Of a DNA stretch of 64,000 bases, positions 4,007 through 60,187 are shown piece after piece. Made by a program: the position numbers and the translations under genes. Within the stretch, counting starts at the first letter, position 1. Each line of letters opens with the position of its first letter. This stretch comes from Minisyncoccota bacterium (lineage in GTDB: Bacteria > Patescibacteriota > Minisyncoccia > Phycocordibacterales > UBA2100). The notes under the pieces were generated by a model, which worked only from the letters and a program-made list of their open reading frames with translations, did not search any database and was not told where the DNA came from. The DNA lies in assembly GCA_043780835.1 (NCBI GenBank), contig JAYWCB010000010.1, positions 2,845 to 66,844 on the forward strand, read 5' to 3'.

Positions 4007-4645
4007 TTATAACAGCCGCGTTTTGTCCAAGAGCACAACGTGCGGGAAATCGAGCGTGTCGCGAATGAGGCGGTCTTTGACAGTGATGCGGTATCGAAAC
4101 TCTGGAGTTGTAAACGCAGCGTAGCGGATTTCCCGACCAAACGCCGGCTCGAGCGAACGAACAGCTTTTTCCAAACGGCGCTCATTAATAGAGTCGGATG
4201 CGATCAGAATATCTGCCGGCCGCGTATCGTCGCCCATAAATGATCCGGAGAGGATGACTGCGGAGATTCTGCCGCCGCGCTTCAGCGCACCGACAATACT
4301 GTCGTAACGGACCGGCGAGACTTCGTGAATGAGCGCGGAAACTGCGCGCAAGTGTTTGAATTCACTGTTCGTAGACCACGCTGCCACTTTTGCATTACCT
4401 TTTACGACGCGTTTTGATTTGTTTGCGAGCGTAATCGATACCGCGCGGGCCGGTTTTACCATGCCGATTTTCACCAGCGATTTCACTTCTTTCAGCACCG
4501 CCTTTGGTGCAACCCCGCTCCGCTTCGAGATATCCGAGACAGTCATGACATCGTTTGTATTAAACACAAAAACACGCAGAATTCGGGCACGGTTCTTATT
4601 GTTAAGAAACTCGGGGAGAAAATCGTCTTTCAGTACAGCAGTCAT
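4007..4645 (-). CDS. wHTH plus minimal nucleotidyltransferase-like domain protein
   Basis: N-terminal HTH-like segment; C-terminal ILSGSFMGDDTRPADILIASD resembles the GS…D.D NTase motif. Confidence 0.4.
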   Translation of the reverse strand: MTAVLKDDFLPEFLNNKNRARILRVFVFNTNDVMTVSDISKRSGVAPKAVLKEVKSLVKIGMVKPARAVSITLANKSKRVVKGNAKVAAWSTNSEFKHLRAVSALIHEVSPVRYDSIVGALKRGGRISAVILSGSFMGDDTRPADILIASDSINERRLEKAVRSLEPAFGREIRYAAFTTPEFRYRITVKDRLIRDTLDFPHVVLLDKTRLL

Positions 4646-13638: not shown

Positions 13639-14196
13639 ATGTCGAGTCAAATGGAGCAAAAACTTGTAAGAAAGTTGCGACGGACTAAAATGCAGGACGC
13701 TATACTCTCCTCACTCAAAATCGCCGGCATTTTAACCATCGCAATCGCCGCGCCAAATTTGGTGCAATTGTTAAAAAGACAGCTGACTAATCGCTCGATT
13801 CAAGGCGCATCTGAGCGACTTGCACAAAAAGGATTCATTGCATGGCAACATATAGACGGAAAAAGATTTATGCAGCTGACCGCCAAAGGAGAAGCGTATA
13901 TAAACGCAAGAACCATGTCGATCGCAAAGCCAAAACACTGGGACGGTAAATGGCGAATCGTCATATTTGATATTGCTGAGCCTCGAAGGAGGCACCGTAC
14001 ACAGTTGCGTAGAACGCTCATCGCGCTTGGTTTCAAACGGCTCCAAGATAGCGTGTGGGTATTCCCCTATGACTGCGAGGAGCTCATTACCCTTTTGAAA
14101 ACGGAGTATGGCCTTGGCAAAGAAGTTTTGTATATCATCGCGGATTCAATCGAGAGAGATTGGGAAATTATAGATCATTTTAAACTGAGGGATTAA
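13639..14196 (+). CDS. PaaX-like winged-helix regulator
   Basis: WDGKWRIVIFDIAEPRRRHRTQLRRTLIALGFKRLQDSVWVFP resembles the PaaX C-terminal signature. Confidence 0.45.
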   Translation: MSSQMEQKLVRKLRRTKMQDAILSSLKIAGILTIAIAAPNLVQLLKRQLTNRSIQGASERLAQKGFIAWQHIDGKRFMQLTAKGEAYINARTMSIAKPKHWDGKWRIVIFDIAEPRRRHRTQLRRTLIALGFKRLQDSVWVFPYDCEELITLLKTEYGLGKEVLYIIADSIERDWEIIDHFKLRD

Positions 14197-14295: not shown

Positions 14296-14430
14296 GGGGT
14301 GTGTGGTTGGGTGGGTGGGTGGGTTGGATGTTGGTGGGGTTTGCTGGAGAAGTGGGAGGATGTGGTGGAAGGGTGACGGTGGGAAAAGAAAAAAAGGGGG
14401 TGGAAATACATCGGTAACGGGGGGGGTGAA
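14296..14430 (+). repeat. G-rich low-complexity tract with canonical G-quadruplex motif (GGGTGGGTGGGTGGG at about 14308-14325) and a G8 run (14418-14425)
   Basis: Direct reading; lies in the intergenic region between convergent genes. Confidence 0.7.
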
Positions 14431-14452: not shown

Positions 14453-15286
14453 CTATTTGATTCCGGCGTCGGTTTTGATTTGAGCAGCGAGCTGGGTTTG
14501 GCCTTGTTTGGTTGCGTTGTCGATTGCGGCCTGGAACATCGCCATTGCCTCGTCGGTACGACCGAGTTTTTTTAGATAGACAGCGAGCGTGTACTGCATG
14601 TCTACAGCACGCGGATTGGCAGCGATCGCCTTTTTGAGAATGTCTTCGGCTGCAGAGTTAGACGGTTTATAGGAAGTTTCGCTGTAAAGCGTAAACAAGT
14701 TGCGGTATGGGTTCGTGTCGTCAGGCTTGTTTACTATAGCTGCAAGAAATTCCTTTTCTGCTTTCGGGTAGTCCTTAAGATAACTCATGTACAGCTCGCC
14801 TAAATTATTATGCGATGCGTGATTTGATGGCCATTGCGCCGAAGTGTATTGCCAGACCTGCTTTGCGGTTTCGTAATTACCCGCCATGAAGTTCAGCGTG
14901 CCTACATTGATCCACGCGTTGAAATCGAGCTTGTCTTTTGCAATATCGTTAAAGGCCAATGCATAACCGGATTGCAATGTATGCTTTTCTGCAGGAGAAA
15001 GTTTTGCGGTGAATTGCAGAGCCATTGGAATAGTCGGGGCTTTATATGTCACCGTTGCTTTCTGACCATCCGTAAACGGCACAACGCGTGTGCTTCCGCT
15101 CTCTACCGCAGACTTGGTAAGGGCCGCAAACGTTGCGCTAGAAGTTGTAGCAGCAGATTTAGCATTCGTCTGCATGGCTAAGGCATGCTGATGATTCTGA
15201 TAGAGATAACCGGCCGCAATAAACGCGATCGAGATCACTAAAAGGGCGCTCGCTCTAAGTGTGGATTGATTCATGGTGGCCATCAT
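14453..15286 (-). CDS. TPR-repeat protein, N-terminal signal/anchor
   Basis: Hydrophobic N-terminus; repeated A/L/Y-rich TPR-like helices. Confidence 0.55.
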   Translation of the reverse strand: MMATMNQSTLRASALLVISIAFIAAGYLYQNHQHALAMQTNAKSAATTSSATFAALTKSAVESGSTRVVPFTDGQKATVTYKAPTIPMALQFTAKLSPAEKHTLQSGYALAFNDIAKDKLDFNAWINVGTLNFMAGNYETAKQVWQYTSAQWPSNHASHNNLGELYMSYLKDYPKAEKEFLAAIVNKPDDTNPYRNLFTLYSETSYKPSNSAAEDILKKAIAANPRAVDMQYTLAVYLKKLGRTDEAMAMFQAAIDNATKQGQTQLAAQIKTDAGIK

Positions 15287-32998: not shown

Positions 32999-34090
32999 CT
33001 ATGCCGCATTACGTACATGTTCCGCAAGCCTGCCCGATTCGATGTCTTTTACAAACTCCTGCAGCGTCGCCGCGACGGGAACAGATAATATGACCCCCAA
33101 AAACCCGGCGAGTTCCGCACCGATAATCAGCGCGAGGATGACAAGCAAAGGCGGCACACCCACAACGCGCGTCACCACCTGCGGATAAATGAGGTGATTT
33201 TCGAATTGTTGAATGACGGTGTAGATAATGACAACAGTGATACCAAGCACCGGCCCGCCGGCAACGAAGCCGATCATGACGGCCGGTGTTGCCGCCAATA
33301 TAGGCCCGAACACCGGGATTAATTCAAACAGCGCCGTGATAACAGCGAGAATGAGCGCGTGCGGTACCTGGAAAATAAGAAGCGAAAGGTACACGAGCAC
33401 ACCAATGAGAACTCCTAAAATAATCTGTCCCTGCATCCACAGACCGATTTTGTGCTGCGAGCGTTTCCAGAGATCTTGTACATACGCGCGATGTGAGCGC
33501 GGAGACACAATGCGAATGAAATCATCCACCCCGGTTTCGACGACCGCAAAGTAAAACGAAAAGACGATAATCAATACAAATGAGAACAGTCCGCCAAAAA
33601 TCTTTGTCGCGGCAGAAAATGTGTTACTCGCGGATCCAAAATCAAACAAACTACGGAAACTCGCGATCACGTCACTTCCGGATAAATTAGCGGACGAGGG
33701 TAATCCGAGAATGCTTGAGTACGCCGTATATGCGCTCGACTGCGTAAATGTATCAAGATACGACGGTAACGAAGCGGCGAACGTACCAAAATCTTTCAGA
33801 AGCGACGGAAAGAAAAAGTAGAATACCAAGAAAAACAGAGTGAACATAAACAAATACAAAATAAGCACCGCAACAACCCGCGGCAACGCATGCCTCGTCA
33901 TTGCACGCACGCCCGGTTCTACCGCAGACGATATGACGACTGCGGTGAGCACGATAAGCACGACGTCGCGCAAAATAAAAAGTATCCACGCAAGCACGAG
34001 GAAGACGATAGTCTTGAGGAGTGTTCCCGATGTAATCGTTACGTGGAGATTCCGCTCGTCCATCCCGTTAGAAATAGGACGCGGACACAT
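32999..34090 (-). CDS. AI-2E family transporter (PerM/YhhT-like)
   Basis: 8-TM profile and conserved AI-2E segments. N-terminus MCPRPISNGMDE is encoded by the repeated regulatory motif. Confidence 0.7.
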   Translation of the reverse strand: MCPRPISNGMDERNLHVTITSGTLLKTIVFLVLAWILFILRDVVLIVLTAVVISSAVEPGVRAMTRHALPRVVAVLILYLFMFTLFFLVFYFFFPSLLKDFGTFAASLPSYLDTFTQSSAYTAYSSILGLPSSANLSGSDVIASFRSLFDFGSASNTFSAATKIFGGLFSFVLIIVFSFYFAVVETGVDDFIRIVSPRSHRAYVQDLWKRSQHKIGLWMQGQIILGVLIGVLVYLSLLIFQVPHALILAVITALFELIPVFGPILAATPAVMIGFVAGGPVLGITVVIIYTVIQQFENHLIYPQVVTRVVGVPPLLVILALIIGAELAGFLGVILSVPVAATLQEFVKDIESGRLAEHVRNAA

Positions 34091-34186
34091 TGGATGTGTC
34101 GCACCCTACTCGACTACTACTCATAAACTCGACGCTTCTGCCATGCTCTGATTCCGCGCGTCCGCGATTTCTAACGGGATCCATGC
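34061..34186 (-). promoter_or_regulatory. inverted-repeat RNA stem enclosing the start codon: arm L 34061-34086 (in CDS), arm R 34154-34186 (5' UTR); core ATCCCGTTAGAAAT
   Basis: Direct reading. Arm R is about 90% identical to 63213-63241. Confidence 0.5.
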
Positions 34187-34196
34187 CCGCATCCTA

Positions 34197-35315
34197 TCAC
34201 GGAGCGTTCCTTTGAGTGATGGTTTGATCAAGTATTTTCCTAACTAAATGATGGGTGTTCCCATGCCGTAGAAGCCCCAGATATGATTGCATTATCGGAT
34301 CATTTTCTGCCACCTCGCGTGTATTTTTGCACGCACGACACTTAGTAGACCTTCGAAGCACGCGATGACGCGGAAAGTGCACCCATCCGAGAAAGTCCAC
34401 GCCGCTCGCGAATGTTTTTATAAATACCTTATCTGGATGCAACTCGAGCTTGAGTTTTTCATGCAGAAATGCCGCGATCTTCGGCAACAATGAGTCAAGG
34501 CGCGGCCTTGATGCAGAGAGTATTACGAAGTCGTCCGCGTAGCGAATGTAGTGCTTCGCTTTGAGCGTCTGCTTTACGTATTGATCGAACTCGTTCATGT
34601 AGATATTCACAAGCAGCTGACTCGTCAGATTACCGAGCGGCAATCCCTTTAAAGTGGAAGGTTTAGCCTTCCACTTTACTCCTCTGCTCATATCCCTATC
34701 TTCGCGCGGTCGCGTAGAAATAGGGATACCGGATCGGAAACTATGGACGACGTTTTTGATGAGCTCAACAGTGCGGATGTCGGGAATATACCCACCTACG
34801 ATGTCGAGAAGGATTGATTGATCGATGCTTGCGAAGAACTTTCGGATATCGCACTTGAGCACCCAACAGGTGCGGGTGTGATTTTTTGATACTTTGTATG
34901 CGAATTCCCGGAAACGATTCATCGCTTTGTGGGTTCCCTTTCCTTTTCTGCATGAATACGAATCTGCGATAAACGTGCGGTCGAAGAACGGGTAGAGTTT
35001 GCGATACAGCGCGTGGTGTAACAGTCGATCGCGTACGCTCGCCTTGTGAATGTCGCGGGGTTTGGGGTCGGATATCTTGAACGCCTCGTATCCGTCGTGA
35101 CGATACGTACCGTTCCTTAGATCGGTATGCAAGGCAAGAACATTACGCATTAGACTAGCTCGAAATTCCTGCACATCCTGCTTCTTTTGTTTTCCCCGCA
35201 CAAATTCTCTCCACGCCGCAAGAAGATTTACAACCGAAATGATATCCTCGTATGAGTGGCTGAAAACTCTCCGAGACTGGACCCCCCCCAACGGCTTTTG
35301 CCTGTTATTGAGCAT
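34197..35315 (-). CDS. DGR reverse transcriptase
   Basis: NLLAAWREFVRGKQKK…LRNGTYRHDGYEAFKISDPKPRDIH…VRDRLLHHAL (bRT-like N-terminus). Motif 4 LPLGNLTSQLLVNIYM (the SQ variant typical of DGR RTs). RYADDFVIL active site. Confidence 0.8.
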   Translation of the reverse strand: MLNNRQKPLGGVQSRRVFSHSYEDIISVVNLLAAWREFVRGKQKKQDVQEFRASLMRNVLALHTDLRNGTYRHDGYEAFKISDPKPRDIHKASVRDRLLHHALYRKLYPFFDRTFIADSYSCRKGKGTHKAMNRFREFAYKVSKNHTRTCWVLKCDIRKFFASIDQSILLDIVGGYIPDIRTVELIKNVVHSFRSGIPISTRPREDRDMSRGVKWKAKPSTLKGLPLGNLTSQLLVNIYMNEFDQYVKQTLKAKHYIRYADDFVILSASRPRLDSLLPKIAAFLHEKLKLELHPDKVFIKTFASGVDFLGWVHFPRHRVLRRSTKCRACKNTREVAENDPIMQSYLGLLRHGNTHHLVRKILDQTITQRNAP

Positions 35316-35678
35316 GCAAAGAAATTGTACATCCTCTGGCTTCCCATACGGCGCAACATGGCACGGGATGAGCGTTTTGGAATCGGCAAACGAATCGACG
35401 AACTTTTGTTATCTGCACTCGAACAATTGCGAGAGGCTTCGTATAGCTCGGGAAGCGGAAAAATAACACTCCTCGGCAAAATTTTGCAAAGCACCGATCT
35501 GCTTCGCTTTTTCTTCCAATTGGCGTGGGAAGGTCAAATTCTCCAACAAAGACAGTACATTCTCCTTGCGGAAAATACGGAGAGTCTCGGCAAAATGGTC
35601 GGCGGATGGCGCAAAGGATTGATTGCAAAAACCCCGCCCCAAGAAAATAAATCCGTGAGCGGGGAAAGAAAAGAGTAG
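35256..35678 (+). CDS. avd: Avd-like accessory variability determinant (four-helix-bundle protein)
   Basis: Helical ORF. LWLPIRRNMARDERFGIGKRIDELLLSALEQL is similar to the Bordetella phage BPP-1 Avd segment YLYPIAQSIPRKHGVAREMFLKCLLGQVEL. Lies on the strand opposite the RT and overlaps its annotated start by about 60 nt; start may instead be at Met35 (35358). Confidence 0.5.
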   Translation: MAENSPRLDPPQRLLPVIEHAKKLYILWLPIRRNMARDERFGIGKRIDELLLSALEQLREASYSSGSGKITLLGKILQSTDLLRFFFQLAWEGQILQQRQYILLAENTESLGKMVGGWRKGLIAKTPPQENKSVSGERKE

Positions 35679-35788
35679 CGAGACAGGACCTGGTTGCCGT
35701 CGTTCCACCTATTCGGGTTCTCGATCGAGTTGGCCTCTACATTCCAGCCACCGTTGTCGGAGTTCCAGTTGGCGTTGACCGCCCAGAG
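35677..35788 (-). repeat. DGR template repeat (TR), 112 bp, AAC/AAT-rich in sense orientation
   Basis: Identical to the VR except at 16 positions, all A in the minus-strand (sense) TR. Encodes …NANWNSDNGGWNVEANSIENPNRWNDGNQVLSR. Confidence 0.85.
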
Positions 35789-36035
35789 CCATATTGTGCA
35801 TTGAGTCACCTATGCCACTGCCCTTTGACTACTCTCAGAGCTGTATCGTATGTGGGACCTCAAAGTCCTCCAACGCAATGCACCGATTCTTAATCTTTTT
35901 TAAGAGCTTCTGCTCGCGCGCTTCCAAGAGATCTCTCCGTTGAAATTCTGACGATGCAAATAACCCGAGGCGCTGCGTGAAATTTGTTACACGTCACACC
36001 AGAGCACTCCTCGCTATGTAGTATACAAAAGAAAA

Positions 36036-36071
36036 GACCCTCTGAAACTGTTTTTAAAGTTTCAGAGGGTC
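36036..36071 (-). terminator. perfect 14-bp hairpin (gaccctctgaaact / agtttcagagggtc) about 50 nt downstream of the VR; terminator and/or DGR cruciform element
   Basis: Direct reading. Confidence 0.55.
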
Positions 36072-36122
36072 AGAAAAGCTGAGGGTTTAAAGTAAAACCC
36101 CAAAGAGAACAAGTGAGAAGAA

Positions 36123-36722
36123 TCAGCGAGACAGGACCTGGTCGCCGCCGCCCCACCTACGCGGGTCCTCGATCGAGTTGGCCTCTACACCCCAGCCACC
36201 GCCGTCGGAGCCCCAGCGGGCGTAGACCGCCCAGAGGATGCCGTTCACGTCGCGGATATACACAATGTTGGCATACCCGCTGGTGAGGAGCGGTCCGACT
36301 TCGCCCTTGCCCTGCTTCGAGAGCAGCGCAAAGAACTGACCGAGCTTGATCTCGCACTTTTCGGCGAGTACCGTAATGATCGGAGTATCGAGCGAGTGTT
36401 CCAGGAGCTTGTGCGCCTTGATGTCGGAGGCATCGCAGATACCCTCAAAAAGTCCGAGGAAGTTCGTGCTGAAGTTGTGGCCGATCCATGCAATACGCAC
36501 CGCAGCCTTCTTTGTGTCGACCGTGAAGTAGTCGGCAGCCTTAAAACCTTCGACGCCGGCGACCGAGGTGGTCGTCACGAGTTCGAGGAGCTTCTTGGGC
36601 TCGCTCGGCTTAGCGACAACGACATGTAGATCTCCGGCGAGTAGACGCATGAATGCGTCTTCGCCCCCGATCTTGTTGATGCCCGCCTCAATCTGGCCAA
36701 GGGTGAGATTGCCATATTTCAT
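36123..36722 (-). CDS. DGR variable (target) protein, 199 aa, no signal peptide
   Basis: C-terminal 37 aa encoded by the VR (…WAVYARWGSDGGGWGVEANSIEDPRRWGGGDQVLSR*). Confidence 0.75.
   Translation of the reverse strand: MKYGNLTLGQIEAGINKIGGEDAFMRLLAGDLHVVVAKPSEPKKLLELVTTTSVAGVEGFKAADYFTVDTKKAAVRIAWIGHNFSTNFLGLFEGICDASDIKAHKLLEHSLDTPIITVLAEKCEIKLGQFFALLSKQGKGEVGPLLTSGYANIVYIRDVNGILWAVYARWGSDGGGWGVEANSIEDPRRWGGGDQVLSR
36125..36236 (-). repeat. DGR variable region (VR)
   Basis: 112-bp copy of the TR with all 16 differences at TR adenines. Confidence 0.85.
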
Positions 36723-36869
36723 GATGGACTCCTTCCCGGCTGTTTGCCGGTGACTTCTCGCTTCCCGCGAGTTGAGGGGCCGTTGACATTTGCCACAGCA
36801 GAAAAGCTTCTTTCATAAAGGCCTGTCTGCTGCGGCAAATCAATTGTCAAAGTGCGCAACCTATTTATA

Positions 36870-38159
36870 TTATACTATACGAGAGGCCAACTTGTCAATA
36901 GGTACGCGCTTCTGGGCACCTGTATCACGGTCGCGAACAGTCACTGTGCCCTCGAGATCCGGGTTTTCACCAAGAGTGTCGAAGTCGATCGTGATACAGA
37001 ACGGCGTGCCGATCTCATCTTGGCGGCGATAGCGCTTGCCGATGTTGCCGTTGTCATCCCACATGATCTGCGGGATATCCTTTTTGAGCATTAAATATAC
37101 TTCTCGCGCCTTCTGCACGAGTTCGGGTTTGTTTTTGAGCAACGGGAAAACCGCCGCTTTCACCGGTGCAACGGCTGTATTAAAGGCAAGATAGGATCGC
37201 GGTTCGCCGCCGAGTTCGTCTTCCCGGTATACCGAGGCAAGCACAGCAAGAAATGTACGATCGACTCCAAACGAGGGTTCAATGACATGCGGAACGAGTT
37301 TGTCCCCTTCTACATCGTCCTGAAATTCAAGACTTTGACCCGAGCCCGTTTGGTGCGCTTTCAAATCGAAGTCGGTGCGATATGCGAGACCGTACAATTC
37401 TTTGCGACCAAATGGGAAATCAAATTCAAAATCGATGGTGCGCTTCGAGTAATGTGCCCGGTCGCCGTCTGCAACTTCGAGCTCGTGTACCGCTGATCGC
37501 GCAATGCCGACAGCCTCGTTAAAGGCATGCACGTTTTCACGCCACATTTCAAATGCTCCTTCCCATGTTTCCGGTCGCACAAAATATTCAATTTCCATCT
37601 GTTCAAGTTCGCGCACGCGGAAAATAAAGTCTCGTGGAGCGATTTCATTGCGAAACGCTTTTCCGATCTGTCCGATACCGAACGGGAGCTTCGGGTGGAA
37701 TGAGTCAACGACATTTTTGAAATTCACAAAAATCCCTCCCGCAGTTTCCGGACGAAGATATGAAACAGCAGCTTCGCCTTCGGTCGCGCCGATCTTCGTC
37801 TCAAACATCATATTGAACTGACGAACTTCGCCGAATGCGCCGCCGCACTCGGGACACGCCTCGCCCACGTGATCGACACGAAAGCGGCGTTTGCATTTTT
37901 TGCATTCAACAAGCGGGTCTGAGAAACCGCTCACGTGGCCGGACGCTTTCCACACCTCCTGATTCATAAGGATCGCGGCATCGAGTCCGTACATATCATC
38001 GCGATTCTGCACAAACATGCGCCACCATATATTCTTGATGTTATTTTTGAGCTCAACGCCAAGCGGACCGTAATCCCATGTACCGGCGAGTCCCCCATAT
38101 ATTTCTGAGCCCTGATACACAAAGCCCTTACGCTTCGCGAGCGAGATGATTTTTTCCAT
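36870..38159 (-). CDS. glyQS: glycyl-tRNA synthetase (class II, alpha2 type)
   Basis: MEKIISLAKRKGFVYQGSEIYGGLAGTWDYGPLG… Start taken at the MEK Met. Confidence 0.9.
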   Translation of the reverse strand: MEKIISLAKRKGFVYQGSEIYGGLAGTWDYGPLGVELKNNIKNIWWRMFVQNRDDMYGLDAAILMNQEVWKASGHVSGFSDPLVECKKCKRRFRVDHVGEACPECGGAFGEVRQFNMMFETKIGATEGEAAVSYLRPETAGGIFVNFKNVVDSFHPKLPFGIGQIGKAFRNEIAPRDFIFRVRELEQMEIEYFVRPETWEGAFEMWRENVHAFNEAVGIARSAVHELEVADGDRAHYSKRTIDFEFDFPFGRKELYGLAYRTDFDLKAHQTGSGQSLEFQDDVEGDKLVPHVIEPSFGVDRTFLAVLASVYREDELGGEPRSYLAFNTAVAPVKAAVFPLLKNKPELVQKAREVYLMLKKDIPQIMWDDNGNIGKRYRRQDEIGTPFCITIDFDTLGENPDLEGTVTVRDRDTGAQKRVPIDKLASRIV

Positions 38160-57547: not shown

Positions 57548-57622
57548 TGGGCGGCTACAGGGAATCGAACCCTGATCGAGAGCTCCACAAGCTCCAGTGT
57601 TAACCGTTACACCATAGTCGCC
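57548..57622 (-). tRNA. tRNA-His (anticodon GUG) with encoded G-1
   Basis: Cloverleaf folds with D-stem GTGT/ACAC, anticodon arm GGAGC-TTGTGGA-GCTCT, T-arm CAGGG-TTCGATT-CCCTG. Confidence 0.8.
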
Positions 57623-57681
57623 ATCTCCTCTAACAATTGATTTATAGCAGAATCAAGCCCGCAGCGCGAACGCGTATGCAC

Positions 57682-58779
57682 CTATCGTGTCTCCTGCAAA
57701 AGATTTATGACTGTATCGCGCACAACGGTAAAGTTGATCCGTCCAATAAACTGCCCTCGTTCAGTAAGCACGTTTACGCGCCATGATCCGGGTTCCGGGT
57801 TTTGTTTTTGAGAATACCCGCGGAAACCGCCATCGCGCCCGCCGCGTATTTCAAACCTGACATCGCCTCGTGTTTCCCATTGCCTCGTTCCCTTGTTATA
57901 AAACTGCCACTGATGGCGCAGGATCGTGGAAAGGCCTGATGGTGCAAATACAGCGGTGAATACATACGCATTATCACCGTCGTTGAGTGCGATGTGTGCG
58001 GGTATACCGAGATAGCGAACTCCAAACGATTTCATTTCCCCGCTCAACGTATATTCGTTTTCCGTTCGCTCTACGAGATGATAGACCCCTCCCTCTTTGA
58101 GCGCGAGTGGAAGTGGAGGAATAATATTGGAGAAATACAGCACATTGAAGAGCATAAAGAGGGCGGCGAGTGAGCGCGTAGTCGTGGACTGAGCGGCAGT
58201 GAACCGTTCCGGCGTGAGTGCACGCAACAGTCCGGTAAACAATCCGATAATAACAACGCTCGAAGCGCCCGCAAGCAAAAACATGGCGGGACCGATCGTT
58301 TTAAATATGAGCGGCAAAAAGAATATAAAGAAAGAAAACAGCGTGGTGAAGTACATCGATATTTGAAATGGAAGTTTTTGATACAGCATGCGAAACCGCT
58401 CATTTCCGATAAGCATGAATGCAAGCGCGAATACAAAGACCCACGACACCGCGACACCTGCGCTGCGACTGTATAAACTCACATACCCGCTAAATAATGC
58501 GCCAAAGAAAAATTGCACCGCAACTGGAAGAAATGGCGACACGGTAAGCAAAAATCTCTGTTCAACACGACCCGACTCTATCAGATTGAGTAATACAATC
58601 GCGATACCGACGAGTACAAGATACGAAAGCATCAACATATTTCCGAATGGTGCGTCCACGCGCTTCAGCACGATGAAATTATCAATCAAAAAGCCCGCAA
58701 TGAGTGAGAGCGGAGAGATGTAACGCTCATACCATTGAATGAGCTCTTCTATATTCTGAGGAAGATACTGACGGATCAT
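57682..58779 (-). CDS. membrane protein with several N-terminal TM helices and a C-terminal extracytoplasmic domain
   Basis: Hydrophobicity pattern only. Confidence 0.45.
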   Translation of the reverse strand: MIRQYLPQNIEELIQWYERYISPLSLIAGFLIDNFIVLKRVDAPFGNMLMLSYLVLVGIAIVLLNLIESGRVEQRFLLTVSPFLPVAVQFFFGALFSGYVSLYSRSAGVAVSWVFVFALAFMLIGNERFRMLYQKLPFQISMYFTTLFSFFIFFLPLIFKTIGPAMFLLAGASSVVIIGLFTGLLRALTPERFTAAQSTTTRSLAALFMLFNVLYFSNIIPPLPLALKEGGVYHLVERTENEYTLSGEMKSFGVRYLGIPAHIALNDGDNAYVFTAVFAPSGLSTILRHQWQFYNKGTRQWETRGDVRFEIRGGRDGGFRGYSQKQNPEPGSWRVNVLTERGQFIGRINFTVVRDTVINLLQETR

Positions 58780-58844
58780 GGATATAGAAATAATAGCAAA
58801 TCCACCGGTCCCCCAGGTATTTGAATACGAGTCGTTTCAATAAC

Positions 58845-58875
58845 AAAAAGCCGGATATCGATCCGGCTTTTTGTT
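58845..58875. terminator. bidirectional intrinsic terminator (aaaaagccggatatcgatccggctttttgtt)
   Basis: Downstream of tRNA-Leu. Confidence 0.65.
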
Positions 58876-58897
58876 ATGGACTTTTTTCCAATTTTTG

Positions 58898-58982
58898 TGC
58901 CCGGGACAGGACTCGAACCTGCACGCCCATAACAGGCTTTACCACCTCAAGGTAAAATGTCTACCAATTTCAACACCCGGGC
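58898..58982 (-). tRNA. tRNA-Leu (anticodon GAG), class II with long variable arm
   Basis: Acceptor GCCCGGG/CCCGGGC, anticodon arm TTACC-TTGAGGT-GGTAA, T-arm GCAGG-TTCGAGT-CCTGT. Confidence 0.8.
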
Positions 58983-59036
58983 ATCACTGCTTCGCGATTA
59001 TACGCATCGCTTTCACTATTATCAATCTGATGTACA

Positions 59037-59070
59037 CAAAAGGCCCCGAGTGGGGCCTTTTGTGTTTGTT
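59037..59070 (-). terminator. intrinsic terminator after rplS (aaaaggccccgagtggggcctttt…)
   Basis: Hairpin with flanking tracts. Confidence 0.6.
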
Positions 59071-59072
59071 TT

Positions 59073-59528
59073 TTATGCCTGTTCGATTGCGGCTGACTCT
59101 TCGGCAGAGGGAGTTGCAAGTTCAATCGGCGCCTGGTCTTCTTCAAGACCCGTAACAACCGGTGCCGCCGACTTATTGACGAGGACGGTGCGGCGAAGCA
59201 TACGACGAGCCTCGCGAGCAACTTTGTCGCGAAGGAAATAGAGCTTGGCGCGGCGCATAGTTGCGCGCTTTACGATCTCAATTTTGTCGATCATCGGAGA
59301 ATAGAGCGGGAAAATCTTCTCGACACCTACACCACTCGATACACGGCGAACCGTAAAAGTACCGCCTGCCTCCGTGCCGTGCTTGCGCGCGAGTACGAGA
59401 CCCTCGAATGTCTGGATGCGGGTTTTGCCCTTTTCCTCGATTTTCTGGTGCACACGAACAGTGTCTCCGGAGCGGAGGTCTAATGTCTTGCGTGCTTGCA
59501 CATCTACCGGTGAAATTGTGAACGCCAT
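59073..59528 (-). CDS. rplS: 50S ribosomal protein L19 with C-terminal extension
   Basis: …[34 protein letters not shown]…[31 protein letters not shown]…AKLYFLR. Start taken at MAFTISP. Confidence 0.85.
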
Positions 59529-59730
59529 AACGTCGCGGCACTGTAACATGCAGGACCTGCAAGGGCAAATTACTATAGAAAAGGACCGGAAGCGTGTGCT
59601 CACGGCCCTTTGTAGTGCGGCTCAGCCGCGAAGATCAATGGCCGCCGTGGCCGTCTTCGTCGTTGGCAACATTCATCTCGAATTAAACACAAGAAGACCG
59701 ACAGCAGCTGTCGGTCTTCTTGTGTTTCTG

Positions 59731-59803
59731 TGGGCGATACAGGACTCGAACCTGTGACCTTCGCTGTGTAAAAGCGTTGCTCTACCAACTGAGCTAATCG
59801 CCC
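59731..59803 (-). tRNA. tRNA-Val (anticodon UAC)
   Basis: GGGCGATTAGCTCAGTTGGTAGAGC…TTTACAC…GGTTCGAGTCCTGTATCGCCCA. Confidence 0.75.
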
Positions 59804-59839
59804 GTTCCGCATCACCTTATCGTATTTATGTCTTTACAC

Positions 59840-60075
59840 CAATTGCCCTCGGTTGGAAACGCCCGCGACTAAACGATTGCCGTCGCAATCGCTTGTCTGG
59901 GCACCGCCTCACTGTCTCGCAAGCTTGCGAGACATCGTTCCGGCGTTCGATTCCAACACGCACAGCGCGCAGGCGCTGTGCTCTCGGTCAAAACATACGT
60001 TTTGCCCTTCGGTATCTGGGAAACCCACGGTTTTCCCAAGCCTTCCTCCACGGGAAACTTCCGTTTCCCGCCCCC
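59840..60075 (-). ncRNA. highly structured spacer between tRNA-Val and tRNA-Arg. Hairpins: H1 gattgc-CGTC-gcaatc; tgtctcgcaag/cttgcgagaca; cacagcgc-gcag-gcgctgtg; cgggaaac-ttcc-gtttcccg. Also an inverted T-arm-like segment ggcgttcgattccaac. Possible co-transcribed ncRNA or repeat-element copy
   Basis: Direct reading of multiple perfect stems; no protein-coding potential. Confidence 0.35.
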
Positions 60076-60115
60076 TTCCCTAACCGAGGACACCTCGTTC
60101 GCTTCGCTCACTCTG

Positions 60116-60187
60116 TGCCCCCGGTTGGAATCGAACCAACATAGACGGCTTAGAAGTCCGCTGCACTATCCATTGTGCTACAAGGGC
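60116..60187 (-). tRNA. tRNA-Arg (anticodon UCU)
   Basis: Acceptor GCCCTTG/CGGGGGC (two G-U pairs), D-stem GCAC/GTGC, anticodon loop CTTCTAA, T-arm GTTGG-TTCGATT-CCAAC. Confidence 0.7.

What the first reader, a model, noticed from the sequence alone, without database searches (positions are those of the whole stretch)
34197..36722. Complete diversity-generating retroelement with adenine-specific TR/VR divergence
A 112-bp segment at 35677-35788 (TR) is repeated at 36125-36236 (VR). The VR forms the last 37 codons of the 199-aa gene 36123..36722. The two copies differ at 16 positions, and at every one the TR has A on the minus (sense) strand while the VR has C, G or A. That is the signature of DGR mutagenic homing. 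In sense orientation the TR is packed with AAC/AAT codons (…NANWNSDNGGWNVEANSIENPNRWNDGNQ…). Between them sit an RT with DGR-type motifs (F-x-DR-x-x-HHAL region, LPLGNLTSQ motif 4, RYADDF) and an Avd-like four-helix-bundle ORF. The 17 nt at the VR 3' end (ccaggtcctgtctcgct) are invariant between TR and VR, which is IMH-like, and a perfect 14-bp hairpin lies about 50 nt downstream. The target protein is small and lacks a signal peptide.
Basis: partly seen in the sequence, partly recalled or inferred. Interest (0 to 1): 0.85.

Follow-up and report, generated by a model that had tools for sequence, protein, structure and literature searches.

The report
Complete diversity-generating retroelement, Patescibacteria type
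This is a real, complete diversity-generating retroelement of the kind already known to be common in ultra-small Patescibacteria; it rewrites the tip of a small lectin-like protein, and its template sits in a conserved folded RNA that I found in no RNA library or held paper.

Summary
TR (35677-35788) and VR (36125-36236) are 112-nt minus-strand copies with 16 differences. All 16 lie at TR adenines (chance about 3e-12).

The RT's best solved relative is the Bordetella phage DGR RT, and it carries the LGxxxSQ and YADD motifs. No intron RNA is present. An Avd gene is there, but on the opposite strand. This TR-(avd)-RT layout is the published "B3" architecture, which accounts for 90% of candidate-phyla-radiation DGRs.

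Extras:
- The TR lies in a roughly 390-nt unit with its own extended -10 box.
- That unit has a covariation-supported leader of about 230 nt and a hairpin plus U-run after the TR. Rfam has no match.
- A poly-G tract sits at the avd/RT junction in most relatives.

The parts
36869..36898 (-). Consensus sigma-70-type promoter (TTGACA-18-TATAAT, 12/12) upstream of the target gene, overlapping the glyRS stop
36123..36722 (-). Target (variable protein) gene, 199 aa. It has an N-terminal two-helix module (residues 1-28), a linker, and a divergent FGE/C-type-lectin-like domain. No TM segment or signal peptide.
36125..36236 (-). VR: the last 37 codons plus the first base of the stop codon
36125..36141 (-). 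17-nt GC-rich end identical in VR and TR (IMH-like)
36118..36124 (-). VR 3' flank GATTCTT. Conserved in the closest relatives and complementary to the leader strand AAGAATC (tentative).
36082..36101 (-). Small hairpin 24 nt after the VR. Possible counterpart of the DGR target-site hairpin.
36027..36071 (-). 14-bp hairpin plus T-run: intrinsic-terminator-like end of the target transcript
36020..36027 (-). Extended -10 box TGTATACT. Putative promoter of the TR RNA, conserved at this position in most related loci.
35789..36019 (-). Structured leader of about 231 nt directly 5' of the TR. It contains helices P1, P2 and P3 (12 bp), with P3 enclosing P4 and P5; an invariant A-rich single strand at 35885-35901; and a conserved GGGCAGTGGCATAGGTG strand at 35807-35823.
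35677..35788 (-). TR (template repeat): 28 adenines, 10 AAY codons
35665..35676 (-). Pyrimidine linker ACTCTTTTCTTT 3' of the TR. Tentatively pairs with the A-rich leader strand.
35627..35664 (-). Covarying hairpin (CCCCGC...GCGGGG) plus U-run 12 nt after the TR. It lies inside the 3' tail of avd on the other strand. It is a candidate Avd-binding stem-loop and/or terminator of the TR RNA.
35256..35678 (+). avd (accessory variability determinant) on the opposite strand. The ORF runs from GTG 35256. The HMM match starts at residue 15, so TTG 35298 is the likelier start.
35282..35289 (-). Poly-G tract (G8) at the head-to-head avd/RT junction, inside the first codons of RT
34197..35315 (-). DGR reverse transcriptase. 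The ORF from ATG 35315 gives 372 aa. The product on record from the same 132-kb NCBI contig has 364 aa, which corresponds to TTG 35291.

Best explanation
A chromosomal diversity-generating retroelement of the Patescibacteria type, with the layout target(VR) - TR - (avd, reversed) - RT.

Proposed mechanism, with each step marked as shown or inferred:
1. The TR is transcribed on the minus strand, embedded in an RNA of about 390 nt. That RNA has its own extended -10 promoter, a structured leader of about 230 nt, the 112-nt TR, a 12-nt linker, and a hairpin with a U-run. The structure is shown by covariation. The promoter and the ends of the RNA are inferred.
2. The RT, helped by Avd, copies the TR into cDNA and misincorporates opposite adenines. 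This is inferred from family membership. The A-only mismatch pattern is shown.
3. The cDNA replaces the VR, the last 37 codons of a 199-aa cytoplasmic lectin-like protein. This recodes up to 17 codons, about 7e15 possible proteins, without creating stop codons. The arithmetic is shown. The replacement step is inferred.
4. The 17-nt identical end, the diverging flanks and the hairpins after the VR mark the VR as the recipient. This is inferred.

The family is active in nature. Near-identical sister loci differ almost only in the VR, at TR-adenine positions. This is shown for the sisters, not for this locus.
For: Repeats:
- 16 of 16 mismatches lie at TR adenines, P about 3e-12.

RT and Avd:
- RT matches Pfam RVT_1 at 1e-23.
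- Its best solved relative is the Bordetella phage DGR RT 8ub7 at 1e-39, with aligned PKPR, [I/L]GxLTSQ and Y[A/M]DD motifs. The next hits are group II-like RTs at 7e-18 or weaker.
- Avd matches NF033474 over the full model at E 3e-15, on the + strand. It also matches Pfam bAvd at 1.5e-8.

Other RNA families:
- No Rfam family matches, group II introns included, even at E<=1.

Relatives:
- The same VR-TR-(avd)-RT order with A-only mismatches is seen in L003, L005, L006, L011-L015, L025, L026, L028, L029, L031, L033, L034-L040.
- This is the published architecture B3, which makes up 90% of CPR DGRs (PMC5758913). It also fits the Patescibacteria-restricted DGR clade 2, whose targets lack known domains (PMC8144416).
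- The RT has more than 8000 homologues. The named ones are from Kaiserbacteria, Minisyncoccota and other Patescibacteria.

Target:
- About 95 homologues are hypervariable exactly at the TR-AAY codons.
- The AF2 model has pLDDT 90. [quoted passage not shown]

Activity in sister elements:
- The 12 members of cluster P0051 are near-identical (two single changes) in residues 1-167 and differ across the VR.
- L014 and L029 are 98.6% identical with identical TRs. Their VRs differ at 14 positions, all TR adenines.

RNA:
- The proposed structure is 89% paired, against 39-51% when the partners are slid.
- 49 pairs show double changes, against 11-26 when slid, and 0 of 500 shuffles reach the observed values.
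- The covariance model hits once per DGR locus, always abutting the TR, and nowhere else in 278 kb + 50 kb searched.
Against: - No direct evidence that this particular copy is active now. Only one sequence of this locus is on record, and an A-to-N pattern scan of metagenome contigs found nothing.
- The Avd HMM scores are below the curated cut-offs (56 vs 80 bits; 35.5 vs 40 bits).
- The promoter, the RNA ends and the priming site are inferred from sequence only.
- The proposed long-range pairing of leader and linker has weak statistics.
Confidence: 0.93

Rival explanations
1. It is a DGR, but in this genome it is a fossil. The VR was diversified in the past, and the cassette no longer homes.
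For: - Only one VR sequence is available for this locus.
- Target homologues that have lost the RT exist: L001, L030, and L032 next to an IS.
- Some relatives have RT 5' ends out of frame at the poly-G tract or at a 1-nt indel: L033 and L029.
Against: - The RT, avd and target ORFs are intact, with all catalytic motifs.
- The poly-G tract is in frame here.
- TR and VR differ only at adenines, with no decay at other bases.
- Sister elements are demonstrably diversifying.
Confidence: 0.12
2. The RT belongs to a group II intron or a retron, and the 112-nt repeat is an unrelated duplication.
For: The best NCBIfam hit is the group II RT/maturase model at 137 bits. Some database names for homologues say 'group II intron RT domain' or 'retron-type'.
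Against: - The 137 bits fall below the 300-bit cut-off. The retron model gives 52 bits against a 235-bit cut-off.
- No intron or retron RNA is found in Rfam at E<=1.
- The protein is 364-372 aa and too short for the maturase (X) or endonuclease (En) domains of intron RTs.
- The bRT match is 70 bits stronger than any group II-like RT.
- It has the LGxxxSQ motif rather than QGxxxSP.
- The A-only mismatch pattern has P about 3e-12.
- The Avd gene is adjacent.
Confidence: 0.01
3. The conserved 230-nt region 5' of the TR is not part of the retroelement's mechanism. It could be only a promoter/UTR, a separate small RNA, or a regulator of the neighbouring genes.
For: - No experiment links it to cDNA synthesis.
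- Its single-sequence folding energy is unremarkable (z -1.4).
- In the Bordetella phage, 20 nt upstream of the TR suffice (bioRxiv 10.1101/2023.10.23.563531).
Against: - It abuts the TR within a few nt in every locus and occurs only at DGR loci. This includes three elements fetched by RT alone and a second cassette in L028.
- Compensatory changes support its helices.
- The space 3' of the TR is occupied by antisense avd, so the RT- and Avd-binding RNA has to be somewhere.
Confidence: 0.12

Closest known systems
Patescibacteria (CPR) DGRs: architecture B3 'TR-(avd)-RT' of Wu et al. 2018 (PMC5758913); DGR clade 2 of Roux et al. 2021 (PMC8144416)
   Same: - Gene order and the reversed avd.
- Chromosomal context among housekeeping genes (glyRS, metRS).
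- A small target without TM segment or known domain, with a C-terminal VR.
- The RT's nearest relatives come from Kaiserbacteria and other Patescibacteria.
   Different: Nothing essential: it is one more member. I could not check whether this target family equals one of the 'UVR1-6' classes of that survey. The leader RNA and the poly-G tract are not mentioned in the passages of those papers that my term searches returned.
Bordetella phage BPP-1 DGR (mtd-avd-TR-brt), the only DGR with a solved RT-Avd-RNA structure (PDB 8ub7; bioRxiv 10.1101/2023.10.23.563531)
   Same: - RT homologous at E 1e-39, with the residues that contact template and dNTP conserved (K29, F66, R74, I76, G182, Q187 equivalents).
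- An Avd is present.
- Adenine-specific TR-to-VR differences, AAY-rich TR, C-terminal VR in a lectin-type fold.
- A stem-loop just 3' of the TR, in the position of the BPP-1 Avd-binding stem-loop.
   Different: - avd is on the other strand, 3' of the TR.
- The RNA 3' of the TR is only about 50 nt before a U-run, against 140 nt of essential spacer in BPP-1.
- The large conserved structured domain is 5' of the TR, where BPP-1 needs only 20 nt.
- No match to Rfam, which as far as I recall includes the BPP-1 spacer motif RT-10 (PMC5737381).
- The host is a cellular chromosome, not a phage, and the target is not a tail fibre.
DGR variable proteins with FGE-type C-type-lectin fold (Treponema TvpA 2y3c; FGE/SUMF, EgtB/OvoA domains)
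   Different: - Very small (about 150-aa domain), no sequence similarity, no Pfam family.
- Foldseek finds nothing.
- No lipobox or signal peptide, unlike TvpA.
Group II intron RTs and retron RTs
   Same: Same RT superfamily (RVT_1); weak HMM matches.
   Different: Scores are below the family cut-offs, there is no associated intron or msr-msd RNA, the protein is too short for the X (maturase) or En (endonuclease) domains of intron RTs, and motif 4 is of the DGR type.

Membership tests
Diversity-generating retroelement (DGR) | TR/VR repeat pair whose differences lie (almost) only at TR adenines | tested here: met
   16 of 16 mismatches at TR-A, P about 3e-12
Diversity-generating retroelement (DGR) | RT of the DGR clade (motif 4 [I/V/L]GxxxSQ; closest to bRT rather than to intron or retron RTs) | tested here: met
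   LGNLTSQ and YADD are present. Best PDB hit is bRT 8ub7 at 1e-39, against 7e-18 or weaker for group II-like RTs. No full phylogeny was made.
Diversity-generating retroelement (DGR) | VR inside a protein-coding gene; TR non-coding and next to the RT | tested here: met
   The VR forms codons 163-199 of the target. The TR lies about 360 nt from the RT start, with avd antisense in between.
Diversity-generating retroelement (DGR) | Accessory protein Avd | tested here: met
   NF033474 matched over the full model at E 3e-15, and PF22296 at 1.5e-8. Both are below the curated cut-offs. Most of the orthologues checked in related loci carry PF22296 on record, some only as 'weak' hits; the L037-L039 ORFs carry none.
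Diversity-generating retroelement (DGR) | IMH at the VR end, a differing IMH* at the TR end, and a hairpin downstream of the VR | tested here: inconclusive
   The 17-nt GC-rich end is identical in both copies. The flanks diverge immediately after it. Hairpins start 24 and 54 nt after the VR end. Function cannot be tested in silico.
Diversity-generating retroelement (DGR) | Variable residues displayed on a C-type-lectin (or Ig) fold | tested here: inconclusive
Diversity-generating retroelement (DGR) | Ongoing diversification: within-population VR variation at TR-A positions | not testable with these tools
   No reads are available, and 0 hits came from the A-to-N pattern scan. The feature is met for sister elements.
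CPR/Patescibacteria DGR, architecture B3 TR-(avd)-RT | avd on the reverse strand between TR and RT; Patescibacteria host | tested here: met
   ORF strands and HMM matches. Named RT and target relatives are all Patescibacteria. Definition taken from PMC5758913.
Group II intron | Ribozyme domains flanking the RT ORF; RT reaching the family score, with maturase domain | tested here: not met
   No Rfam hit at E<=1. TIGR04416 gives 137 bits against a 300-bit cut-off.
Retron | msr-msd RNA next to the RT; retron-clade RT | tested here: not met
   No Rfam hit. NF038233 gives 52 bits against a 235-bit cut-off.

The most novel reading that the evidence does not exclude
In the reversed-avd (B3) DGRs of Patescibacteria, the DGR RNA may be arranged differently from the Bordetella phage paradigm.

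- The TR would be transcribed as a discrete RNA of about 390 nt, from its own promoter to a hairpin with a U-run only 50 nt past the TR.
- The large folded domain that binds RT-Avd, and possibly primes cDNA synthesis, would lie 5' of the TR instead of in a 3' spacer.
- An invariant A-rich leader strand is complementary to the sequence just 3' of the TR. In most lineages its last 5-8 nt match the VR boundary or flank. It could therefore act as cis-primer and/or guide that marks the VR as the recipient.
- A poly-G tract at the RT 5' end would make mutagenesis phase-variable.

The folded leader itself is well supported. Its absence from Rfam was tested; whether it has been described in the literature I could check only partly. 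The priming/guide role and the phase switch are conjecture.
Probability: 0.3. Interest if true: 0.7.

Novelty: new member of a known kind. Interest (0 to 1): 0.42.

Why it matters
As a DGR in a Patescibacteria genome it is expected, because these bacteria are the most DGR-rich group known. Its value lies in being a compact (2.6 kb), clean and complete example with many sequenced relatives.

That set of relatives made three things visible.

1. **An active target family.** The target is a widespread family of about 200-aa lectin-like proteins that appear cytoplasmic. Their function is unknown, and they are being diversified in nature. What such organisms diversify inside the cell is an open question.

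2. **A different RNA layout.** The RNA around the TR is a conserved, covarying structure placed 5' of the template. All mechanistic knowledge of DGR reverse transcription comes from one phage element whose essential RNA lies 3' of the template. The most common cellular architecture may therefore work with a rearranged RNA. This is directly testable with a 390-nt RNA and two small proteins, and it matters for engineering DGRs for directed evolution.

3. **A possible on/off switch.** A homopolymer tract at the RT start could act as an on/off switch for hypermutation.

Tried and rejected
**Searches that found nothing or could not run**
- Exact-protein look-ups of the window's target found no contig.
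- A scan of metagenome contigs for the TR with every A replaced by N, to find VR alleles of this population, gave 0 hits.
- Foldseek of the target model against PDB and BFVD gave nothing significant. The afdb50 library was unavailable.
- Pfam and NCBIfam found nothing for the target or for its N-terminal module, even at E<=5.
- PDB sequence search for Avd found nothing.
- Rfam found only 4 tRNAs in the window at gathering thresholds, and nothing in 33900-36300 at E<=1.
A 118-position model of its 3' half was used instead.
- Two papers were not held: Paul et al. 2017 (PMC5436926) and the 2026 'Minerva' preprint. I therefore cannot exclude that the leader RNA has been described.

**Ideas that did not hold up well**
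- *Long-range pairing of the A-rich leader strand with the linker 3' of the TR.* It is 72% paired against 45-53% when slid. The covariation score is barely above the slid controls, and 4 of 500 shuffles reach it. This is suggestive only.
- *Leader complementarity to the VR 3' flank.* There is a perfect match in group-1 loci and L006 (7-8 nt) and in L040 (6 nt). L034 and the second cassette of L028 have 7 nt at another offset. It drops to 5 nt in L025, L026 and L037, and is absent in L020. Cross-pairing leaders and flanks of different elements gives matches of 4-7 nt, so it is not statistically secure.
- *Poly-G length difference between near-identical L014 (G9) and L029 (G6).* L029 carries other single-base indels and its contig naming suggests a long-read assembly, so this may be sequencing error.

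**Considered and rejected**
- Group II intron, retron, and plain duplication (see rival explanations).
Full report
**1. The observation**

The minus strand carries a 112-nt direct repeat, at 35677-35788 and 36125-36236. An ungapped alignment gives 16 mismatches. At all 16 the downstream copy has A and the upstream copy has G (13), C (2) or T (1). Twelve other adenines are unchanged. With 28 A among 112 positions, the chance that 16 mismatches all hit A is 3e-12.

The upstream copy is in frame. It forms codons 163-199 of the 199-aa ORF 36123..36722(-) plus the first base of its stop codon. The downstream copy reads LWAVNANWNSDNGGWNVEANSIENPNRWNDGNQVLSR, with ten AAY codons. Seventeen codons can change, none can become a stop, and about 7e15 proteins are possible. 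No other copy that tolerates changes at A exists in the window.

**2. The genes**

- *RT.* ORF 34197..35315(-) is a reverse transcriptase (RVT_1, 1e-23). Against all solved structures its best match is the 328-aa RT of entries 8ub7-8ube, at 1e-39. By its length and by the cryo-EM study of bRT-Avd-RNA, I take this to be the Bordetella phage DGR RT. The next matches are group II-like RTs at 7e-18 or weaker. The alignment conserves PKPR, [I/L]GxLTSQ and Y[A/M]DD.
- *Other RT families.* NCBIfam has no DGR-RT model. The group II (137 bits, cut-off 300) and retron (52 bits, cut-off 235) models are missed.
- *RT start.* The product on record for the same 132-kb NCBI contig has 364 aa. That places its start at TTG 35291.
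- *Avd.* ORF 35256..35678 on the + strand matches the DGR Avd model over its whole length (NF033474, 3e-15; Pfam bAvd, 1.5e-8). Both scores are under the curated cut-offs. The match begins at residue 15, so TTG 35298 is the likely start. RT and avd then start head to head, 6 bp apart.
- *RNA families.* Rfam finds only four distant tRNAs in the window, and nothing in 33900-36300 even at E<=1. There is no group II intron RNA.
- *Context.* The neighbours are glyRS, an AI-2E transporter and metRS, which indicates a chromosomal location.

**3. The target**

The 199-aa protein has no Pfam or NCBIfam match. It has no hydrophobic segment (maximum Kyte-Doolittle 19-residue mean 1.13) and no signal-like N-terminus.

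About 95 homologues exist. The ones that carry a taxonomic name come from Patescibacteria (Paceibacteria, Kaiser-, Adler- and Giovannonibacteria) or from an unclassified 'bacterium'. Their alignment is conserved except in the last 37 residues. There the consensus is LWAVxAxWxxxxGGWxVxAxSVxxPxxWxxGxQVLSR, so the variable columns are the TR-AAY codons.

**4. Relatives and activity**

Loci were fetched in three ways: through the target family, through exact proteins, and through RT homologues alone. They show the same order, target(VR) - about 320-400 nt - TR - reversed avd - RT, with 11-23 A-specific mismatches each.

Two results show live diversification in sister elements.
- Twelve members of one 90% cluster are identical in residues 1-167 (two single changes aside) and differ throughout the VR.
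- Loci L014 and L029 are 98.6% identical over 2.4 kb and have identical TRs. Their VRs differ at 14 positions, all of them TR adenines.

Some homologues have lost the cassette: L001, L030, and L032 beside an IS.

**5. Comparison with the literature**

- Wu et al. 2018 define architecture B3 as 'TR-(avd)-RT' with avd on the reverse strand. [quoted passage not shown]
- Roux et al. 2021 describe a Patescibacteria-restricted DGR clade 2. Its targets usually lack transmembrane or other recognisable domains and are expected to hide new lectin-fold variants (PMC8144416).

The element is thus a typical member of a known, abundant kind. The RT alone has more than 8000 homologues at E<1e-20.

**6. What the non-coding parts look like**

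The 336 nt between VR and TR contain, in order:
- a small hairpin (36101-36082);
- the 14-bp hairpin with a T-run (36071-36027), which looks like the target's terminator;
- an extended -10 box TGTATACT (36027-36020), conserved in place in most relatives;
- a leader of about 231 nt that runs up to the TR.

Across 13 loci the leader plus TR plus 3' tail align (A7). RNAalifold predicts 62 pairs, 48 of them with compensatory changes.

I counted the pairs of a named structure: helices P1 and P2, a 12-bp P3 enclosing P4 and P5, and a hairpin 12 nt after the TR.
- 89% of cells are paired, against 39-51% when partners are slid.
- 49 pairs show double changes, against 11-26 when slid.
- 0 of 500 shuffles reach the observed values.

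A covariance model of the 3' half of the leader hits the window once (35791-35908). It also hits once at every DGR locus, always ending at the TR. This includes loci not used to build it, three elements chosen by RT only, and a second cassette in L028. It hits nowhere else in about 330 kb.

The post-TR hairpin (35664-35632) covaries and is always followed by TTTT[T/C]. It lies inside the poorly conserved 3' tail of avd on the other strand, and the avd stop codon falls at different places relative to it in different loci.

In the Bordetella phage, 20 nt upstream and 140 nt downstream of the TR are required. The downstream spacer holds the Avd-binding stem-loop, the priming adenosine, the stop duplex and the RT-binding stem-loop. 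The published survey of other DGRs examined only 40 nt upstream and 100 nt downstream (bioRxiv 10.1101/2023.10.23.563531). Here the downstream RNA before the U-run is about 50 nt, and the large conserved structure is upstream.

Weinberg et al. 2017 described RT-associated motifs, including RT-10 in the BPP-1 spacer (PMC5737381). None matches here. I could not read Paul et al. 2017, so I cannot claim priority for this observation.

**7. Weaker leads**

- *Leader-linker pairing.* The invariant A-rich leader strand (35901-35885) is complementary to the pyrimidine linker right after the TR. There are a few compensatory changes between lineages, for example AAAUGAAGA/UCUUCAUUU against AACGAAG/CUUCGUU. 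The statistics are weak.
- *Leader-VR flank match.* The last 5-8 nt of the leader strand match the VR boundary or flank in most lineages: GATTCTT here; AAGTAGC in L006 and AAGTAG in L040. The match is weaker or absent in others, and a cross-pairing control overlaps the observed values. If real, the leader strand plus cDNA would be collinear with the antisense strand across the VR boundary, which would suit a primer or guide role. This is conjecture.
- *Poly-G tract.* A G tract (G8, 35289-35282) sits at the avd/RT junction. G6-G12 occurs at the same place in 14 of 16 independent elements, and L006 has (GT)15 there. G/C runs of 7 or more are otherwise rare: 11 in 214 kb of loci, 9 of them at this junction, and 2 in the 64-kb window. 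The tract is in frame with the RT here and in L011 (G12), but out of frame in L033 (G8). This hints at a phase switch, but homopolymer errors cannot be excluded.

**8. Verdict**

It is a new member of a well-known kind, so it is not surprising to a specialist as a DGR. The associated structured RNA, the short 3' tail and the G tract are worth a follow-up. They bear on how the commonest cellular DGR architecture primes and controls reverse transcription.

Noticed in passing
window 35282-35289 (G8 on the minus strand); same position in L002, L003, L011, L013, L014, L020, L025, L026, L028, L029, L033, L034-L040: A homopolymeric G tract (G6-G12) sits at the head-to-head avd/RT junction in 14 of 16 independent related elements. 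L006 has a (GT)15 microsatellite there instead. G/C runs of 7 or more are otherwise rare. The tract is in frame with the RT here and in L011, and out of frame in L033. It may be a phase-variation switch, but assembly error in homopolymers is not excluded.
   Followed up: partly
window 36639-36722 (target residues 1-28); P0075-P0140: The N-terminal two-helix module MKYGNLTLGQIEAGINKIGGEDAFMRLL recurs at 42-85% identity, starting within the first few residues in nearly all of the 49 cluster representatives. Most of these are 180-220 aa, and some have a different middle domain. It has no Pfam family. One 1843-aa protein (P0134) shows four matched stretches. Function unknown.
   Followed up: partly
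window 34062-34075 / 34167-34180 (extended arms about 34056-34186): A perfect 14-bp inverted repeat, extendable to about 25 bp, with a 91-nt loop. It lies between the RT stop and the AI-2E transporter gene. The RNA fold has z -2.7. No U-run follows it. Not examined in relatives.
   Followed up: partly
window 36869-36898 (minus strand): A perfect consensus promoter, TTGACA-18-TATAAT, overlaps the glyRS stop about 140 nt upstream of the target gene. The diversified protein may be strongly expressed.
   Followed up: no
L001 6001-6600; L030 3501-4109; L032 3501-4100: Full-length target homologues with no TR, avd or RT nearby. In L032 an IS (rve transposase) sits where the cassette would be. These are orphan or decayed targets.
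   Followed up: partly
L028 3592-4647: A second target-like gene (206 aa), followed by a second copy of the leader RNA (4408-4581) and the start of a second TR, directly 3' of the first RT. This looks like tandem DGR cassettes.
   Followed up: partly
window VR 36125-36236 and VRs of related loci: A-to-G dominates the substitutions: 13 of 16 here, and 9-16 of the changes in relatives. This could reflect the RT's misincorporation spectrum or selection for Gly/Asp/Ser/Arg codons.
   Followed up: no
window 35324-35331 (minus strand): An extended -10-like TGTACAAT lies 33 nt upstream of the RT's TTG start, inside the avd coding region. If the post-TR hairpin terminates the TR RNA, this could be the RT's own promoter. 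It is not conserved in all relatives.
   Followed up: partly
window 14419-14426: The only other G/C run of 7 or more in the window (G8 on the + strand). It is intergenic, between two convergent ORFs (13639..14196 + and 14453..15286 -).
   Followed up: partly
window 57549-60187 (minus strand): Four tRNA genes (His-GTG, Leu-GAG, Val-TAC, Arg-TCT) spread over 2.6 kb.
   Followed up: no
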